IMG/VR virus record: IMGVR_UViG_3300031555_004728
Location: 192,001-256,000 of that record
Reading direction: 5' to 3' (one strand)
Source: a virus
Taxonomy: Duplodnaviria > Caudoviricetes
DNA: 64,000 nt
Under the pieces are notes generated by a model that worked only from the letters and a program-made list of their open reading frames with translations, was not told the origin of the DNA and did not search any database. Each line of letters opens with the position of its first letter. The first letter of the stretch is position 1. Below are positions 16,352 to 47,076 of this stretch, in pieces. The position numbers and the translations under genes were made by a program.

Positions 16352-16897
16352 TTAATTCATATCATGAACGTAATATTCGTTCTTGATACTATTAAATACC
16401 TTAATTTCATCTGGCAGTAAATCTGCAGCAATGATAAGACGATTTGAAATCATATCGATGAAAATATCATGAGGTTCGTCATAATACTTTTCATCAGGAA
16501 TATATGCAAAGTAATCATATTTTCCATCATAAATTTCATCGCAGATTTTATTCATTTCTGCAACTGCAAGAGTTTCGATTTCAAGTAATCGATTTGTAGT
16601 GTTTTCATGATCACCATATTTTATTCCAGCTTCAATATAGAGACATCCATATGTTAAAGCAGCTAAAGTTTCTGTAGCTTCAGCAAATGCATCACGAAGC
16701 ATTCCGATACCCTCAAGTTCTTCCTGCTCTTTGATTTTTTCATTTCTTATAGTATTGGTTTTCTTGACACCGTATACAAAAGAATATATAGGCTTAACTA
16801 CATTATATGATGTGAACATATTACATGTTACATCGTTTGAAAATCTCAAACCTTTTCTTCCATATTTCTTTTTGATAATTCGTTTAATCTTTCTCAT
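16352..16897 (-). CDS. hypothetical protein
   Basis: AGGAGG RBS; shares a conserved leader with 43509..43832. Confidence 0.7.
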   Translation of the reverse strand: MRKIKRIIKKKYGRKGLRFSNDVTCNMFTSYNVVKPIYSFVYGVKKTNTIRNEKIKEQEELEGIGMLRDAFAEATETLAALTYGCLYIEAGIKYGDHENTTNRLLEIETLAVAEMNKICDEIYDGKYDYFAYIPDEKYYDEPHDIFIDMISNRLIIAADLLPDEIKVFNSIKNEYYVHDMN

Positions 16898-29097: not shown

Positions 29098-30079
29098 AAA
29101 TTTTGATGATGATTCTTATGTGCCTTCTAGATATAGAGCTAAAGAAGCATTAGAGGATCTAGATGCATTAGAAGAGTTATTTATTCTTCCTTCAGATATA
29201 GCTAAAAGAGAAGAATCAAAAAAAGAAAGTAAGAAAAAAGAAACTGTTAGTGAACCTGATGATTTACTTGATACTGATTGGATGGATACTCTAAGTACTC
29301 TTAGAACTGAAAAGAAAAGATTCAAAAATGTAGAAGACTTATTTGGTGAAGGTGGAAAGAAAAAGAAGAAAAAGAAAAAGAAAAACGCTGATGGACCAAA
29401 AGACCATTCTGAAGATTTTGAAAATGAACTCAGATTACTTAGAAATATCTTAAAAGAACAAACAGGATTGTCAGATTCACTTCAGGAAAGATATGATACA
29501 TTAAACAGACAAAAATCATCAGCAAGAGGTGTTGGTAAATTTACAACAGATTTAATTGCTACATTAAATCATGCCCGTACATTAGAAAAAGACATAGTCA
29601 AAGAAATTACGGGTATAAAGAAGACTATTGCTGATTTAAATATGAAGGAACGTGAAAAATTCGGAAAACTTGAAAATATGAGTGATGAAGATATGAATCA
29701 ATTCGCTTCTACATATTTAAAGAAAATTATGGGTGCTAACCAAGACATTAATGGTGGATTTGGTGAATCAATAATTGATGATGTTATTGATGCAGATGAC
29801 TTTTATGGTGAATTAGATTTGAATATGAGAGAATCTGATGGATATGCATCTAGAAGTGAGGATGCTGACAAGTATCTCAAATATGAAAAACAACAAATTA
29901 CAGTAAAAATACTTTATGACCAAAGTGATGAAAGTATGCAATTCTTTGCAGAGAATGAAAATGGTGAAATAGTTGATGATTATCCATTACCTGGAACTAT
30001 TGATTCGGTTAGAATTAATCATTCAACTAAAATTGGTACAGATAGATTTGGTCAGAAGTTCCAAGTTATTTATCAATAA
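29090..30079 (+). CDS. hypothetical protein with poly-Lys tract and coiled coil
   Basis: AGGAGG RBS; GGKKKKKKKKK. Confidence 0.75.
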   Translation: MSKNFDDDSYVPSRYRAKEALEDLDALEELFILPSDIAKREESKKESKKKETVSEPDDLLDTDWMDTLSTLRTEKKRFKNVEDLFGEGGKKKKKKKKKNADGPKDHSEDFENELRLLRNILKEQTGLSDSLQERYDTLNRQKSSARGVGKFTTDLIATLNHARTLEKDIVKEITGIKKTIADLNMKEREKFGKLENMSDEDMNQFASTYLKKIMGANQDINGGFGESIIDDVIDADDFYGELDLNMRESDGYASRSEDADKYLKYEKQQITVKILYDQSDESMQFFAENENGEIVDDYPLPGTIDSVRINHSTKIGTDRFGQKFQVIYQ

Positions 30080-34267: not shown

Positions 34268-34846
34268 TTACCAATGATCATAATATCTATACTCATCTAT
34301 ACTTAATATAGTTCTTTGTAAATCATAATCATCAATAAATTCAATATCACCTACTGAATTTAAAGTTTCTAGATTATAATATACAGCATTTTGAAATTCT
34401 ATAGTTTCATATAAATCCCTAGAAACCATCCATTTGAAATAGTCTTTATCTTTAAGATGTCCTGGTACTACAAATTTATCTCTTAATGATTCAGTATCAC
34501 CTATTAATATTTTATATGAATCACTAAAATGTAAAAATAAATAAAATGATTCACAGTGAGTAGTTCCGAAAAATTTCTTATGATTATATACCATATAATC
34601 ATGATAATTCATATAAAAATATTTTCTTACAAAAGCTTCTTCTGGATTATGTTTAAGATCAACAACTTCAAAATTTATTAATTTAAAATCATCCATATTT
34701 GCCCTAAACCTATTTGTCAATACAGAATCTGTACATAATCCTATTGTATCATTTGTTTGATTTTTATATGAATCTATTTCATGTATTGAACAGAACTTAG
34801 TTGATATATCATCAGTTGGATTTGTATATGTTAATTGATATAGCAT
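34268..34846 (-). CDS. hypothetical protein
   Basis: Overlaps the stop of the upstream ORF. Confidence 0.7.
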   Translation of the reverse strand: MLYQLTYTNPTDDISTKFCSIHEIDSYKNQTNDTIGLCTDSVLTNRFRANMDDFKLINFEVVDLKHNPEEAFVRKYFYMNYHDYMVYNHKKFFGTTHCESFYLFLHFSDSYKILIGDTESLRDKFVVPGHLKDKDYFKWMVSRDLYETIEFQNAVYYNLETLNSVGDIEFIDDYDLQRTILSIDEYRYYDHW

Positions 34847-35418
34847 TAAATATAACCCTCCATTTCATCAATCAAAATTTTTGCAAGGACGTTAACTTCT
34901 TTATTTATTAACTTACATGAATTTAGAGCATTATGTCTTTTTTGGTAATAATAACTACTTTCAAATGCTATTTGCTTACTAAGTGTATCAAATTTTAATT
35001 TAGTATTATCACCCATTATTTTAATAAATACCATAGTAGAAGCGTTTATAATAAAATCACGACCTTCTAAAATAGCTCTAGCAGCTTTATGATTTCTAAA
35101 CATATTAGAAGCTTTTTCATATTCTTCATCATCATTAGAATCCATAGTTGAAAGGATTGATTGTAGAACAAAATAAAACTTTGTTCTTGCACTAGCCTCT
35201 GGGACATTACATTTTAAATAAAGTTTTTCAATTCCAACTTCTTCAAATTCTGATCTGTATGATAATATCATGTCTTGATCAGATTTATAATAAAAATCTA
35301 TATATTCATCTTTAATATTTTTAATATAATCAATACTAGGTGTTTTATTTGTATAATTTATATCTAAAATATCCATATCAAACTGATCTATCATTTCAAA
35401 ATTTATTTTATCAATCAT
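34846..35418 (-). CDS. hypothetical protein
   Basis: AAGGAG RBS; TATATTAT motif upstream. Confidence 0.7.
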   Translation of the reverse strand: MIDKINFEMIDQFDMDILDINYTNKTPSIDYIKNIKDEYIDFYYKSDQDMILSYRSEFEEVGIEKLYLKCNVPEASARTKFYFVLQSILSTMDSNDDEEYEKASNMFRNHKAARAILEGRDFIINASTMVFIKIMGDNTKLKFDTLSKQIAFESSYYYQKRHNALNSCKLINKEVNVLAKILIDEMEGYI

Positions 35419-35500
35419 AAGAAATCTCCTTTTATCATTTATATAAAAATAATATATTTTTATAAAATATAATAATTTATTACACCTATAACATAAAATT

Positions 35501-35850
35501 AATGCAGAAGATAGGTACCAAAAATTGTAGTATCCTCGGAAGTGTTATGATAGCGGTTTACCGTTTATAACCGGATACGATTTTCTTGCATTCTTTGTAT
35601 TGTGGTGCCACCCGATAAAAGCTTAGGTGGTGAGATCCGGACGTGAAAATCAATGGCTTAGTAAAATTGAGAGAATAAAATTTGGAGAACATAAAACCAT
35701 ATATTCGTTATGTAACTCTGCGTGAGTGAAGAATAGTGGTAATCTTCATACCTAGCCCGGGGTAAATTAGGGTTTGAATGCTTATAGCCAATAATTCCGG
35801 ATAAGTAATTATGAACAAGGATGAGATTAAGTTCTCATCCTTGTTCTTTT
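35501..35850 (+). ncRNA. candidate structured non-coding RNA of unknown family
   Basis: GC-enriched, no ORF in the track, multiple nested stems, late-type promoter with predicted +1 at 35501, terminator at 35813-35850. Confidence 0.6.
35813..35850 (+). terminator. intrinsic terminator
   Basis: GAACAAGGATGAGA / TCTCATCCTTGTTC followed by TTTT. Confidence 0.8.
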
Positions 35851-35914
35851 CATTTTTTTAACCGAAAAACAGTTTACTAAGCTCAGATTATTAATAAAGA
35901 AGGGAGGTTACTAA

Positions 35915-36640
35915 GTGTCTAAATATTTTAGAAAAGATAATGAATTCATCTATTTAACAGATGATTACATGGAATTTTATATTCCCCTTGATTTTTTTGA
36001 TCAGAGCAAAAGATTCGCAGTAGATTTTTCTTCATATATTGAAACTTTAGGATTATTTTATGTTGGAATTTTCGAAAAAGGATCATTTAAAGAATTTAAA
36101 GTGATGAAGCAACCATATACTATTACAGTTTATGTGTATGATTCAGAGAATAGAACTGTACAACTCCCTGATGGGGAAACTGTATGTAAAGTTCTTAAAT
36201 ACAACAAAAATGCTGCACTTATGAATTCAAAAATTATTCAAGATGCACAATCATCACTTGAATATCTTGATTTAGTAATGGGTGGAAAAGTACCATCAAG
36301 TGTGCCATATAATATGGCTGCTATATTGTGTCAGAAAAATAAAATGGTTAATAAGGTTAATTTTGGTGTAAGACCAGAAGTTGAAGAAATGGTTATAGCA
36401 TTAAATTACCGTAATCCTAATGATTTGTCTGAACCTTTTGCAATCACATATGGTGGAAATTTAGCTGTTTCACCACATGCGTATACTACTGTAGGAACTC
36501 GACAAATTTGTCAATATGCATCAACGTTCTCTTCATTAACATTTGAAGATATGGATGCTATGCTAACTACATCTATTAATCGTTCTCGTAAAAAAGGAAA
36601 AGAGAAGTTTTCTCCTATAGAGGATGTAATAAAGATGTAA
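35915..36640 (+). CDS. probable RNA polymerase beta'-like C-terminal fragment
   Basis: EVEEMVIALNYR and STFSSLTFEDMDAMLTTSI resemble beta' KHIEVIVRQM and SAASFQETTRVLTEAA. Confidence 0.5.
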   Translation: MSKYFRKDNEFIYLTDDYMEFYIPLDFFDQSKRFAVDFSSYIETLGLFYVGIFEKGSFKEFKVMKQPYTITVYVYDSENRTVQLPDGETVCKVLKYNKNAALMNSKIIQDAQSSLEYLDLVMGGKVPSSVPYNMAAILCQKNKMVNKVNFGVRPEVEEMVIALNYRNPNDLSEPFAITYGGNLAVSPHAYTTVGTRQICQYASTFSSLTFEDMDAMLTTSINRSRKKGKEKFSPIEDVIKM

Positions 36641-44009: not shown

Positions 44010-45416
44010 GTGAATACATTGAAAGTAGGATTATTAAATACTGAAGAATTTATTTCAGTAAATAATCTTAAGGAAATAACATCACCTGTTATGTTCCAAA
44101 GAGGAAATAACCCTCATCCAGAAGGTCTCTTTAGTACTGAAATTTTTGGTATGACACCAAAAGATAGAAAAGAGACTTTTGCATATATTAATTTAAATCA
44201 TGTATTCCTACATCCTCATATTTATAAGATAATGAAACGATTTTTTAGAAACGTTGAAAAAATAGTTAATGGTTCTTCTTATTATCAAATTAATAGTGAA
44301 GGACATCTTGTTTTATCTGATAATATTAATGGGGAAACAGGAGTTCAATTTTTATATGATAACTGGGAAAAGATTAAATGGGAATATTCTGATTCACCGT
44401 CAAGAAACGAAAGAATTGATGTTGTGACAAAAAGTAAGAAATCAGAAGTTTTCATTTCAAAACTTATAATCATTCCACCATTTTATCGAGATGTAACATC
44501 ATCATCAGGTGGAGGACAAATACCAGAGATTAATAACTTTTATGCAAATGCTATTCGTTTATCTTCTATATTAAAAGAAAACGATTTATTTAGTTTTAAT
44601 CTCTATTCATCTCAATATGCTATACAAGAATTACTTGTAGAGACATATGATTATTTTAAAGAAAAACTTCAATCTAAAAATGGTTTACTTAGAAAATATC
44701 TTATGGGTAAAAACGTTGACCTTTGTACAAGAGCTGTTATTACAGCAGCATCTTTCCATGCAAATAGACCTGAAGATATGCAGATTAATCTTAAATATAG
44801 TGGTGTTCCTATATCACATATTTTATCTCTATGTAATCCATTTATTATGACATGGATTAAAAATTTCTTTGAACGTGAATTAATGGATCCAAGTGAAAAG
44901 CATTTAATTGATTCTAGAACTGGGAAGGTTGTTGAATTAGTTGAACTTGCTAATCCTGAACTTATTTTTACTGATAAAGAAATTACAAAGAAAATGAATT
45001 CATTTATTAAAGATCCAGATATGAGATTCAAGCCAATTGAAGTTCCTCTTAAAAATGGAAAAACTTCATATCTTTTATTTCATGGTAAAAGATATGATAT
45101 GAGAAATAAAGATGAAATTGCATCAATTGCTAATAGAAAGATGACATGGACAGATGTATTTTATATGGCATGTGAAGATGCAGTTAAAGATAAACATGCA
45201 ATTATTACTAGATATCCTTTGATTGACCAGTATGGTCTTTTTGTTACTAGAGTAACTACATTGAGTACATCAAAAACTGTACCTATGCAAGTTGGTGAAA
45301 CTTTATATCCATATTATCCAGATATTGATTTATCTGTACCAGATAGTAAAGTTCCTACTTTATTTATAGATTCAGTTATGTTCTCTAATAGTTATCTTCC
45401 TGGTATAGATGGTGAT
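44010..45416 (+). CDS. phage multisubunit RNA polymerase beta'-like subunit, exon 1
   Basis: GLFSTEIFG, IIPPFYRD, KNGLLRKYLMGKNVD..RAVIT, TRYP; ends GIDGD. Confidence 0.9.
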
Positions 45417-45699
45417 TAACAAAATAGTTACCTAACCTCTTTAATTGCTGGAAACTCCTTAGAGTCTAAACTACCAAAGTGTAACAATGTTTAGAATTGG
45501 ACAATCAGCAGCGAAGCTTCTTATTATAAGAAGAACGTTCAACGACTATCGAAAGCATAACATAAGAGAAAGACTTATGTGAAGAAGTGAGTAGAGTAGG
45601 ATTTATAATCCGAAATGGGAGGCAATATTAATTTGGTAGTAGAATTAATATTGAAGATATAGTCTGAACTTTATAGAAATATAGAGATTAACATAGTTG
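45417..45699 (+). mobile_element. group I intron (283 nt, no homing endonuclease ORF)
   Basis: P AATTGCTGGAAA, Q AATCAGCAG, R GTTCAACGACTA, S AAGATATAGTCT; P1 pairs exon GGTGAT with GTTACC (U-G at splice site); ends in G. Confidence 0.92.
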
Positions 45700-47076
45700 T
45701 ATGACGGTGATCAAACTACAGTAAAAATTGTATGGACGCAAGAAGCCAATAAGGAATGTGAAGAAGTTATGAATAGACCATCATTCTTTGTAAGAATGGA
45801 TGGTTCATTAGTAAGGTTTGTTGAAATAGAAGCTATTCAGACATTCTATAATATGTCTAAAGAACCTTCTAGATCTAATAAAACTTTATCTATTCCAGAA
45901 GTTCATAATTTAACAAAATTAACACCAAATGATATCACATTCGATTTACTTATTGATTTATTTGGTCATATTGGTGGTAAAAAACCTAAATATGAACCAG
46001 AAGATAAAATGATTATTCCAGTTGGAGAGTATTATAATAAAGAACCTATTGAAACTACAGTAGGAAGATTTATCTTTAATAAAGCTCTTATTGAAAAATC
46101 TGGTATGGTTAAAGTACTTGGATATATCAACGATGTTTTAACTGAAGGATATTTCCATAATAAATTAGAAGGTAAAATTGCTGTTGAATTAATTGAAGGT
46201 AGAATTACAACAGACCAAATGTATACTTATGTTGATACTAGAGACTGGTTATCACTTCAATTACATGCATTAATAACACCTTCATTCACACCAAATACTA
46301 TAAAGATTCATCCTGAAGTTCAAAAACTTAAGAATGAATTATTTAAGAAATATGAAAAAGAATTAGCAAGTGGTAATGCTATTATAGCATCACAAATAGA
46401 ATCTGAATTGATTAATAAAACCAAAGAAGTATTAAAAGATGATATTGGAATGGATTTATATGTTTCTGGAGCTCGTGGTAGTTTAGGAAATAACTATAAA
46501 AATATTGCACTTATGAGAGGTGCGGTTTATAATCGTGCTACTGGAAAATTTGAAGTTGTTAAGAATTCATTAAATGATGGTCTTGCAGTAGAAGATATTC
46601 CTATTTCATCAAATACAATTCTTGAAGGAGCCTATCCTAAAGCTTGTGGTACGAGAGATTCAGGATATATATCTAAAAAATTACTTGCTGAATGTCAGAC
46701 TGAGTTTTTAGGAGATAAAGATTCAGATTGTCATACTAAACGTGGAATTAAAATAAAATTAGAACCTGGTATGGCTAAAAACTATATTTATAGATATATC
46801 ATGGTTAATGGTAAACCAGTTAAATTAACTGCAGATAATATCGATAAGTATATAGGAAAAGAAGTAGAACTTAGAAGTCCAATGACATGTATTAGAACTG
46901 AAAAAGGTGAGATTTGTAATGTATGTGCTGGAGATTTCTATTATATGGTAGATAATAGAGCTATGGGATTATCAGCATCTCGTATTGGAAATGCTCTTAC
47001 AAAATATAATATGAAAAAATTCCATGATAACGTTATTAAATACACTGATGTTGATTTGGATGATTTATTAATGTAA
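45700..47076 (+). CDS. RNA polymerase beta'-like subunit, exon 2
   Basis: Splicing restores DGDYDGDQ; TTVGRFIFN, SGARGS, TRDSGY, DC...LRSPMTC...ICNVCAG. Confidence 0.9.
   Translation, partial: YDGDQTTVKIVWTQEANKECEEVMNRPSFFVRMDGSLVRFVEIEAIQTFYNMSKEPSRSNKTLSIPEVHNLTKLTPNDITFDLLIDLFGHIGGKKPKYEPEDKMIIPVGEYYNKEPIETTVGRFIFNKALIEKSGMVKVLGYINDVLTEGYFHNKLEGKIAVELIEGRITTDQMYTYVDTRDWLSLQLHALITPSFTPNTIKIHPEVQKLKNELFKKYEKELASGNAIIASQIESELINKTKEVLKDDIGMDLYVSGARGSLGNNYKNIALMRGAVYNRATGKFEVVKNSLNDGLAVEDIPISSNTILEGAYPKACGTRDSGYISKKLLAECQTEFLGDKDSDCHTKRGIKIKLEPGMAKNYIYRYIMVNGKPVKLTADNIDKYIGKEVELRSPMTCIRTEKGEICNVCAGDFYYMVDNRAMGLSASRIGNALTKYNMKKFHDNVIKYTDVDLDDLLM

What the first reader, a model, noticed from the sequence alone, without database searches (positions are those of the whole stretch)
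35490..35850. Candidate novel ~350-nt structured ncRNA with its own promoter and terminator, upstream of the RNAP-fragment/sheath/tube genes
Seen: a GC-enriched island with no ORF in the track. Stems: AATGCA(35501)/TGCATT(35587-92), GTATCC/GGATAC, GTTAT/ATAAC, GCGGT/ACCGT, GCCACC/GGTGGT, ATCCGGA(35635)/TCCGGAT(35796), TGGCT/AGCCA, ACATAA/TTATGT, TGAAGA/TCTTCA, CCTAG/TTAGG. The AACA-N6-TA motif at 35490-35501 puts +1 on the first base of the first stem, and a strong terminator closes the unit. I do not recognise it as tRNA, tmRNA, RNase P or SRP RNA. Inference: a late-expressed phage RNA of unknown function.
Basis: partly seen in the sequence, partly recalled or inferred. Interest (0 to 1): 0.7.

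Follow-up and report, generated by a model that had tools for sequence, protein, structure and literature searches.

The report
Orphan late non-coding RNA unit in jumbo phage
A giant gut phage carries a short stretch with its own on-switch and stop signal that encodes no protein and probably makes a ~355-base RNA of unknown job, but the claim that this RNA has a special conserved fold is not borne out.

Summary
The island is real. It lies in a 496-nt gap between divergent genes of a 275.5-kb AR9-like jumbo phage. It is the most GC-rich non-coding gap in the genome and has stops in all six frames.

An AR9-type late-promoter motif (AACA-N6-TA) puts +1 at A35501. A 14-bp hairpin plus U-run at 35813-35859 has no coding gene to terminate. 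Together they define a discrete non-coding transcription unit of about 355 nt. No Rfam family, tRNA or tmRNA matches it.

The same unit sits at the same place in a near-identical metagenome contig, in contigs of four animal-gut runs, and in a second lineage (neighbour gene 81% identical).

The "structured" part is weak:
- Without the terminator the fold is no better than shuffles (z +0.42).
- The interior shares no detectable sequence or pairing profile with the second lineage.
- Divergence from the close relative is near the third-codon-position rate.

Some changes do respect structure: a hairpin tip replaced by a longer one, a few pair-keeping changes, and fewer changes at confidently paired sites (p 0.06).

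Verdict: a probable fast-evolving, lineage-restricted late ncRNA in a hypervariable zone. Function is unknown and expression is untested.

The parts
35448..35457 (-). Early-type promoter motif ATATATTATT for the leftward 190-aa gene. It marks the left border of the unit and is not part of the RNA.
   Evidence: In the genome 31 of 40 copies are intergenic. Twenty have a same-strand gene start within 80 nt downstream, against 3 for the reverse complement. The motif is conserved in L004/L005.
35489..35501 (+). Late-promoter motif P1 (TAACA-N6-TA). The predicted transcription start is A35501.
   Evidence: PWM score 9.2 bits; 10 of 43 training sites score lower, and 83 of 550,954 genome positions score as high. 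AR9 consensus from PMC5312081. Conserved in L014 and L004.
35501..35859 (+). Predicted non-coding RNA of about 355 nt, from +1 to the end of the terminator U-run.
   Evidence: No ORF above 44 aa and stops in all frames. No Pfam or PHROG hit for the mini-ORFs. No Rfam hit.
35501..35519 (+). Conserved 5' leader. It is the only interior stretch alignable with the second lineage (15 of 19 identical to L004, by my count from the alignment).
   Evidence: Alignment A1.
35530..35578 (+). Domain-1 hairpin (GUAUCC...GGAUAC around GUUAU...AUAAC). Its tip is replaced by a longer, nested tip in L014.
   Evidence: Centroid; alignment and MFE.
35607..35631 (+). Hairpin GCCACC/GGUGGU, with two one-sided pair-keeping changes in L014 (G-U to G-C and C-G to U-G).
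35697..35739 (+). Candidate helix 35697-35706 / 35731-35739. L014 has one double change (U-A to C-G; 35704 and 35733), and run X11 has two pair-compatible single changes (35735, 35736).
35635..35802 (+). Long-range pairing AUCCGGA (35635-41) / UCCGGAU (35796-802) that closes the 3' domain. It does not vary between W and L014, so it is untested.
   Evidence: Centroids.
35813..35859 (+). Intrinsic terminator: 14-bp stem, 6-nt loop, then a U-run.
   Evidence: One difference in 100 nt from L014 across 35800-35899. No plus-strand coding gene lies upstream that it could terminate.
35867..35879 (+). Second late-promoter motif P2 (AAACA-N6-TA), 47 nt before the 35915 gene. This means the downstream gene has its own promoter.
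   Evidence: The 21-nt stretch is identical in L004/L005.

Best explanation
The island is an autonomous, non-coding late transcription unit of an AR9-like jumbo phage. The phage's own non-virion RNA polymerase would start at A35501 from an AACA-N6-TA promoter. It would transcribe about 310 nt of GC-enriched, ORF-free sequence and stop at the 35813-35859 hairpin plus U-run, releasing an RNA of about 355 nt.

The product is most likely a functional but fast-evolving trans-acting RNA. It would be built from a conserved 5' end plus a few modular hairpins with exchangeable tips, and would act by being bound (as a protein decoy or scaffold) rather than by long antisense pairing.

Shown: promoter motif, terminator, non-coding status, GC enrichment, and positional conservation in two lineages. 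Inferred: that it is transcribed, that it is functional, and how it acts.
For: Promoter:
- AAACA-N6-TAA is strongly intergenic (48 of 53 copies, against 13% non-coding genome) and stereotypically placed before genes.
- P1 scores 9.2 bits; 10 of 43 real sites score lower, and only 83 of 550,954 positions reach that score.
- The motif equals the AR9 late consensus, with the start site at the last A/G.
- The closest cultured relatives by tail sheath are phiR1-37, AR9 and PBS1.

Terminator:
- It has 14 bp plus a T-run.
- AR9 transcripts stop at predicted terminators.
- No plus-strand coding gene lies upstream of it.
- The next gene has its own promoter, P2.

Non-coding status.

Composition:
- This is the most GC-rich non-coding gap of the genome.
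- Several of the next most GC-rich gaps coincide with copies of group I intron sequence, which is structured RNA.
- GC is 0.37 in the window, 0.39 in L014 and 0.48 in L004, against genome values of 0.285 and 0.321.

Conservation of the unit:
- L014 holds it.
- Contigs of 4 of 4 laid runs hold it. One contig covers the whole 581 nt with 9 differences and 1 gap.
- L004/L005 have the same promoter, 5' 19 nt, non-coding GC-rich body, terminator and P2.

Structure-respecting change between the window and L014:
- A 32-nt insertion nests at a hairpin tip.
- 8 substitutions fall on 126 centroid-paired sites, against 25 on 184 unpaired sites (odds ratio 0.43, p 0.059).
- Blocks of 36 nt and 67 nt carry no change.
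Against: - No transcript evidence: no RNA run holds the stretch.
- The fold is not stabler than shuffles: z +0.42 for the window, -0.36 for L014, -1.62 for L004. The minus strands score no worse. The phage's own group I intron gives -1.67 as a control.
- The interiors of the window and L004 are not significantly alike in sequence (global z 1.57; 17 of 300 shuffles reach it).
- They are not alike in pairing profile either (52 of 60 shuffles reach the observed score).
- Divergence between the window and L014 is 28 of 295 aligned sites (9.5%) plus 40 gap columns. Third-codon positions of flanking genes diverge by 7.4-26%, so overall constraint is weak.
- Of the 8 substitutions at centroid-paired sites, 4 break the pair. 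In another MFE, 10 of 19 do.
- The shared closing hexamer TGCATT appears in 531 of 5000 shuffles of L004.
- The unit is absent from all more distant relatives examined and from AR9.
Confidence: 0.45

Rival explanations
1. It is a decayed or neutral cassette. The hypervariable zone left of the structural module swaps small cassettes bounded by conserved promoter and terminator modules. This one has lost, or never had, a gene. It may still be transcribed, but the RNA does nothing.
For: - The two genes just left of the island are not homologous between the window and L004, while the next gene (52% identity) and the right-hand gene (81%) are.
- The adjacent 190-aa gene differs from L014 almost equally at all codon positions (45, 37 and 50 of 190).
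- The island diverges at about the third-position rate.
- The interior is unalignable between lineages.
- There is no thermodynamic signal.
Against: - No frame shows any protein remnant or similarity between the two lineages' islands (best tblastn E 0.016 over 17 aa).
- Both lineages keep a non-coding body of similar length (310 and 282 nt) with GC far above genome and intergenic levels. Neutral decay in a 28.5% GC genome should erase that.
- Long blocks are unchanged against L014.
- The unit is retained in contigs of runs from four studies, and no contig joins across it.
Confidence: 0.25
2. It is a cis-acting leader. Transcripts from P1 read through the terminator under some condition, riboswitch- or attenuator-like, and add to expression of the structural operon.
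For: - It lies directly upstream of the virion-structural, sheath and tube genes on the same strand.
- AR9 5' UTRs reach 491 nt (PMC5312081, passage).
Against: - The downstream gene has its own strong, conserved late promoter between the terminator and its start codon.
- No riboswitch or T-box model matches, even at E up to 10.
- No antiterminator pairing beyond chance: 136 of 200 shuffled arms do as well in the window, and 22 of 200 in L004.
- AR9 and the other relatives express the same operon without it.
Confidence: 0.1
3. It is a DNA-level or R-loop element. Examples would be a replication origin primed by the P1 transcript, or a GC-rich insulator between the leftward early and rightward late units.
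For: - A very AT-rich stretch (14% GC at 35300-35499) abuts a G-over-C skewed transcribed island at a divergent junction.
Against: - The genome-wide minimum of cumulative GC skew is at 244,840, not at 227,500.
- The local skew switch is what the change of gene strand gives anyway.
- No iterons or repeats: only the terminator recurs in the genome.
- Relatives with the same divergent junction lack the island (L006).
Confidence: 0.07
4. It is a highly diverged member or remnant of a known RNA class, such as a group I intron (of which the genome holds many copies), tmRNA, RNase P RNA, 6S, pRNA or GOLLD/ROOL.
For: - The genome is rich in group I introns.
- Size and GC are similar to those introns.
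Against: - No Rfam match at gathering score.
- At E up to 10 there are 8 weak matches, the best 24.3 bits against a cut-off of 60. Seven of the 8 overlap the terminator region and none is one of these families. L004 gave likewise nothing credible.
- The same scan finds the true intron at 87 bits.
- ARAGORN finds nothing.
- blastn finds no similarity to the genome's intron copies.
- There are no flanking exon halves.
Confidence: 0.03

Closest known systems
AR9/PBS1 late transcription units (nvRNAP promoter AACA-(6N)-TA/G, intrinsic terminators)
   Same: Same promoter consensus with the start site at the last base. Hairpin plus U-run at the unit's end. Same gene order downstream: virion structural protein, sheath, structural protein.
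   Different: In the passages read, the AR9 late genes reported are 124 protein-coding genes and 1 tRNA. This unit encodes neither. AR9 has only a 95-nt gap at the equivalent place.
phi29-family packaging RNA (pRNA)
   Same: A phage-encoded, independently transcribed RNA. From recall, not from any call here: its sequence diverges strongly among related phages.
   Different: pRNA is about 120-174 nt, is made from an early promoter at the genome end, and has a conserved secondary structure (recalled). Here the promoter is late-type, the RNA is about 355 nt, no conserved structure was detected, and no Rfam match was found. Any role in assembly is pure conjecture.
Large orphan phage- or prophage-associated RNAs (GOLLD, ROOL)
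   Same: Non-coding, of unknown function, and found in phage contexts.
   Different: Those are about 580-800 nt with strong covariation support (recalled) and are in Rfam. Nothing in the island matches them. This RNA is shorter, confined to a narrow clade, and lacks covariation support.
Promoter/terminator-bounded exchangeable cassettes of T4-type hyperplastic regions (recalled from the literature, not read here)
   Same: Conserved regulatory modules flank content that differs between related phages.
   Different: Those cassettes carry small protein genes. Both versions here are non-coding and GC-rich.

Membership tests
AR9-type late transcription unit | AACA-(6N)-TA/G motif with the last base as start site | tested here: met
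   35490-35501. Motif statistics and PWM. Consensus from PMC5312081.
AR9-type late transcription unit | Transcript actually initiated there late in infection | not testable with these tools
   No RNA run holds the stretch. The host is uncultured.
Any Rfam 15 family | Covariance-model score at or above the family's gathering score | tested here: not met
   only Intron_gpI, elsewhere in the window; best scores 24.3 and 15.8 bits, far below the cut-offs.
Group I intron | Conserved P3-P8 core and insertion inside a gene with two exon halves | tested here: not met
   No RF00028 match at E up to 10. The flanks are a promoter and a terminator, not exons. No blastn similarity to the genome's intron copies.
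tRNA / tmRNA | Cloverleaf or tRNA-like domain plus tag reading frame | tested here: not met
   ARAGORN finds 0 genes in the window.
Riboswitch / T-box / attenuator leader | Known aptamer, plus a terminator that competes with an antiterminator and controls the next gene | tested here: not met
   No model match. No antiterminator beyond chance. The next gene has its own promoter.
Structured ncRNA in general | Fold stabler than shuffles | tested here: not met
   z +0.42 for the window, -0.36 for L014, -1.62 for L004.
Structured ncRNA in general | Pairs kept by compensatory change across homologues | tested here: inconclusive
   Only two independent lineages exist. Between the window and L014: one clean double change, several one-sided compatible changes, one nested tip replacement, but 4 of 8 centroid-paired substitutions break pairs. 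The window and L004 share no profile.
Trans-acting antisense regulator of phage mRNAs | Outstanding complementarity to a translation-initiation region | tested here: not met
   Best of 275 targets is -49.2 kcal, against -46.3 for the reversed-RNA control. No antisense blastn hit in the genome.
phi29-type pRNA | Rfam pRNA model; binding to the portal during packaging | tested here: not met
   The model does not match. Binding is not testable here.

The most novel reading that the evidence does not exclude
This is a fast-evolving late RNA with a direct role in building or arming the virion of AR9-like jumbo phages. It would be a pRNA-like assembly or packaging cofactor, or an RNA packaged with the injected polymerase. 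It is encoded at the head of the sheath/tube module and co-evolves with lineage-specific partners, which would explain why only its 5' end, size and GC content are kept.
Probability: 0.05. Interest if true: 0.85.

Novelty: new member of a known kind. Interest (0 to 1): 0.4.

Why it matters
If it is transcribed and functional, this would be, as far as the passages I read go, the first dedicated non-coding RNA gene driven by a non-virion-RNAP late promoter in the AR9/PBS1-like jumbo phages. Those passages report only protein genes and one tRNA as late genes in AR9. Two full-text searches for jumbo-phage structured or non-coding RNAs and the 2026 jumbo-phage review (passages) turned up nothing like it.

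Its position in a hypervariable accessory zone and its rapid change would fit an arms-race role. As it stands, it is a well-delimited candidate with weak structural support, found in a narrow, uncultured clade.

Tried and rejected
Homologue searches that found nothing new:
- blastn of the gap and of the L004 island against 50,697 phage records, and of the L004 island against plasmids: no match.
- Exact-motif scans of IMG/VR returned only the two L004/L005 contigs.
- The same scans of genome contigs got no answer from the machine, so bacterial genomes and host-derived origin remain unsearched.
- The motif AACA-N6-TAATGCA in three relatives' records gave one ordinary mRNA promoter and one coding-region match.

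Loci examined for an island upstream of the anchor gene:
- 47 loci. L052 and L054 were left out as partial matches. Four had no upstream ORF or too little upstream sequence.
- 42 of the 51 loci. Left out: the L004, L005, L006, L007, L008 and L009 contigs seen before, and L104, L111 and L141 with short flanks.
- Only L004, L005 and L014 carry the unit.
- The other long gaps hold small ORFs, repeats or AT-rich sequence.

Expression: no RNA holder was listed for the stretch, so it could not be tested.

Hypotheses that found no support:
- Coding potential: six-frame comparison of the two islands and Pfam/PHROG scans of the mini-ORFs gave nothing.
- Antisense targets among 275 translation-initiation regions: no better than the reversed control.
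- Antiterminator: none beyond chance.
- Origin of replication: the skew minimum lies elsewhere.

Other points:
- The apparent GC-rich gap at genome positions 239-2309 was an artefact of my ORF caller. It is a long open-ended minus-strand ORF.
- No covariance model was built. The full unit exceeds practical model size, and two lineages give no leverage.
- Supplementary tables of the AR9 paper (promoter lists) were not seen.

Full report
**Where it is.** The window is bases 192,001-256,000 of a 275,512-bp IMG/VR virus record with terminal repeats. The record has 28.5% GC. Its tail sheath is most like those of the uracil-DNA jumbo phages phiR1-37, AR9 and PBS1, at about 24-25% identity. The gene order virion-structural protein, sheath, structural protein matches AR9 gp124-126.

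The finding sits in a 496-nt gap (35419-35914). On its left is a leftward 190-aa ORF of no known family. On its right is a rightward 241-aa ORF of phrog_2926, a virion structural protein, followed by the sheath. The RNAP beta-like pieces lie at 44010-47076 and are split by a group I intron.

**Checking the observation.**
- The GC island is real: 37.5-39% at 35500-35799 against 14-23.5% immediately upstream.
- After I corrected an ORF-caller artefact, it is the most GC-rich non-coding gap of the genome.
- Several of the next most GC-rich gaps coincide with copies of group I intron sequence.
- It is non-coding. The longest ORFs are 44, 32 and 36 aa, every frame has many stops, and the mini-ORFs hit nothing in Pfam or PHROGs.
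- They do not exceed chance. Without the terminator, 35501-35810 folds at z = +0.42, and 63 of 100 shuffles fold at least as well.
- The minus strand gives z -0.95.
- Moving the ends by a few bases changes the MFE.
- As a yardstick, the phage's own group I intron gives z -1.67.

**Promoter and terminator.**
- In this genome AAACA-N6-TAA occurs 53 times. Of these, 48 are intergenic although only 13% of the genome is non-coding, and most sit about 30-50 nt upstream of a same-strand gene start.
- This is the published AR9 late-promoter consensus AACA-(6N)-TA/G, whose last base is the transcription start (PMC5312081, passages read).
- A weight matrix from 43 gene-proximal sites scores it 9.2 bits. 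Ten of the 43 sites score lower, and only 83 of 550,954 genome positions reach that score. It is a credible but sub-median promoter.
- The hairpin at 35813-35846 (14 bp) plus T-run is a strong intrinsic-terminator pattern.
- The nearest upstream plus-strand gene ends at 30079, with leftward genes in between. The terminator therefore has no coding gene to serve.
- A second, conserved late motif (35867-35879) stands 47 nt before the 35915 gene.
- On the minus strand, an early-type motif ATATATTATT (35448-35457) precedes the leftward gene.
- The gap therefore reads, left to right: leftward early promoter, P1, about 355 nt of non-coding unit, terminator, P2, structural operon.

**Known families.** The Rfam gathering scan of the window finds only the intron. 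A permissive scan of 35350-35950 (E up to 10) gives 8 matches, the best at 24.3 bits against a cut-off of 60. Seven of the 8 overlap the terminator region and none is credible. The same holds for the L004 version. ARAGORN finds no tRNA or tmRNA. The phage and plasmid collections give no blastn match.

**Relatives.**
- *L014.* This metagenome contig, whose neighbour protein is 99% identical, carries the same unit.
- *Gut runs.* Contigs of all four animal-gut runs laid on 35380-35960 hold it. One contig spans the whole 581 nt with 9 differences and 1 gap, and no contig joins across the island.
- *L004/L005.* This second lineage (neighbour 81% identical; the two are the same sequence over the aligned stretch) has the same layout at the same place. 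It has the early motif, CTATAACA-N6-TA, a 5' leader identical at 15 of 19 positions (my count from the alignment), about 282 nt of non-coding sequence at 48% GC, a 12-bp terminator hairpin, and then the identical 21-nt P2 stretch.
- *Interior similarity.* The interior is not detectably related to the window's. blastn finds nothing. The global alignment gives z 1.57, with 17 of 300 shuffles reaching it. The pairing-probability profile is no closer than shuffles, with 52 of 60 reaching the observed score.
However, TGCATT appears in 531 of 5000 shuffles of L004. In the window and L014 the model prefers a shifted partner.
- *More distant relatives.* All lack the unit. This covers 47 loci, 42 further loci, the gaps read, and AR9.
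- *Motif scans.* Scans of IMG/VR return only the L004/L005 contigs. Scans of bacterial genome contigs did not complete.

**Is it constrained?**
- Against L014, the island has 28 differences in 295 aligned sites (9.5%) plus 40 gap columns. Third-codon positions of the flanking genes differ by 7.4%, 11.4%, 14.4%, 17.6% and 26%. Overall constraint on sequence is therefore weak.
- The changes are clustered: four patches hold most of them. Blocks at 35508-35535, 35566-35601 and 35786-35852 carry none.
- Using the window-only centroid as an unbiased structure, 8 substitutions fall on 126 paired sites and 25 on 184 unpaired sites (odds ratio 0.43, Fisher p 0.059). Of the 8, four keep the pair and four break it, three of those in a replaced hairpin tip.
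- The largest indel is a 32-nt insertion at the tip of the domain-1 hairpin. It folds as a nested extension while the hairpin base is unchanged.
- The hairpin at 35607-35631 has two one-sided pair-keeping changes.
- A candidate helix at 35697-35706 / 35731-35739 has one U-A to C-G double change in L014 and two compatible single changes in run X11.
- These G-U-dependent changes fit the plus strand.
- This is suggestive of a modular RNA with tolerant tips, but it is far from proof.

**Context.** The two genes left of the island are unrelated between the window and L004. The next gene leftward is 52% identical and the right-hand gene is 81% identical. The adjacent 190-aa gene differs from L014 about equally at all three codon positions. 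The unit therefore lies in a hypervariable accessory zone bounded by conserved regulatory modules.

**Mechanism and rivals.**
- *Best reading (0.45).* A real late non-coding transcription unit whose RNA is functional, fast-evolving and acts in trans by being bound. What is conserved is the promoter, the 5' end, the length, the GC enrichment and the terminator, not a long pairing surface.
- *Antisense action.* Unsupported. The best of 275 translation-initiation regions gives -49.2 kcal, against -46.3 for a reversed control.
- *Decayed or neutral cassette (0.25).* This fits the near-neutral rate and the zone's plasticity. It does not fit the retained GC excess and matching size in two lineages, or the absence of any protein remnant.
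- *Read-through leader (0.10).* Disfavoured by P2, by the lack of an antiterminator, and by relatives that lack the unit.
- *Origin or R-loop element (0.07).* No support from skew or repeats.
- *Diverged known family (0.03).* Disfavoured by the Rfam and ARAGORN results.

**Novelty and value.** No family matches. Two full-text searches and passages of a 2026 jumbo-phage review mention only that phiKZ expresses non-coding RNAs. The AR9 transcriptome passages list protein genes and one tRNA as late genes; the supplementary promoter tables were not seen. I file it as a new, orphan example of a known kind, the phage-encoded ncRNA gene. It is narrowly distributed and untested for expression, and its structural claim is unproven. 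Interest is moderate.

Noticed in passing
window 45380-45686 (with 44010-45419 and 45697-47076): A group I intron (RF00028, 87.1 bits) splits an RNA polymerase beta-like gene (phrog_2986 / phrog_2962). blastn shows related intron sequence at many other places in the genome, for example G000 176555-176823, 175342-175478, 268863-269036, 80164-80650, 16364-16512 and 150515-150679.
   Followed up: partly
whole genome G000; examples at window 35448-35457 (-) and 35867-35879 (+): Two oriented promoter-type motifs. Late AAACA-N6-TAA: 48 of 53 copies intergenic, about 30-50 nt before gene starts. Early-type ATATATTATT: 31 of 40 intergenic, and 20 with a same-strand gene start within 80 nt, against 3 for the reverse complement. 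The phage appears to use an AR9-like two-polymerase programme.
   Followed up: partly
window 34268-35418: Two leftward genes (192 and 190 aa, no Pfam or PHROG family) have no homologue at the same place in L004. Against the near-identical L014, the 190-aa gene differs almost equally at all codon positions (45, 37 and 50 of 190). This marks a hypervariable accessory zone.
   Followed up: partly
G004:C1:168560-168900 and G002:C1:233740-233990 (relatives' genomes, outside the window): GC-rich non-coding patches (up to 50% GC) closed by CCTATG/CATAGG-type stems. They share an 83%-identical 42-nt core between two phages and have no Rfam gathering hit. This is a second candidate RNA, not found in the window's genome.
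   Followed up: partly
L015 2180-2720: About 14 copies of GATTCATT spaced about 45-55 nt apart, in an 898-nt gap upstream of the homologous structural gene of a 62%-identical relative. The array looks iteron-like.
   Followed up: no
L042, L113, L114, L135 (upstream 1.5-3 kb): No ORF of 70-80 aa or more under code 11 upstream of the anchor gene. These relatives may read a stop codon as sense.
   Followed up: no
G000:C1:104467-104506 and window 35813-35846: The island's terminator hairpin recurs at 88% identity elsewhere in the genome. It also appears in other contexts in run contigs (loose ends at 35817 and 35850), so it is a reused terminator module.
   Followed up: no
G002:C1:18640-18760: A GC-rich patch in an AT-rich divergent gap contains a GGTTCGTATCC-type stretch that looks like a tRNA T-arm (by eye). 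No tRNA scan was run on it.
   Followed up: no
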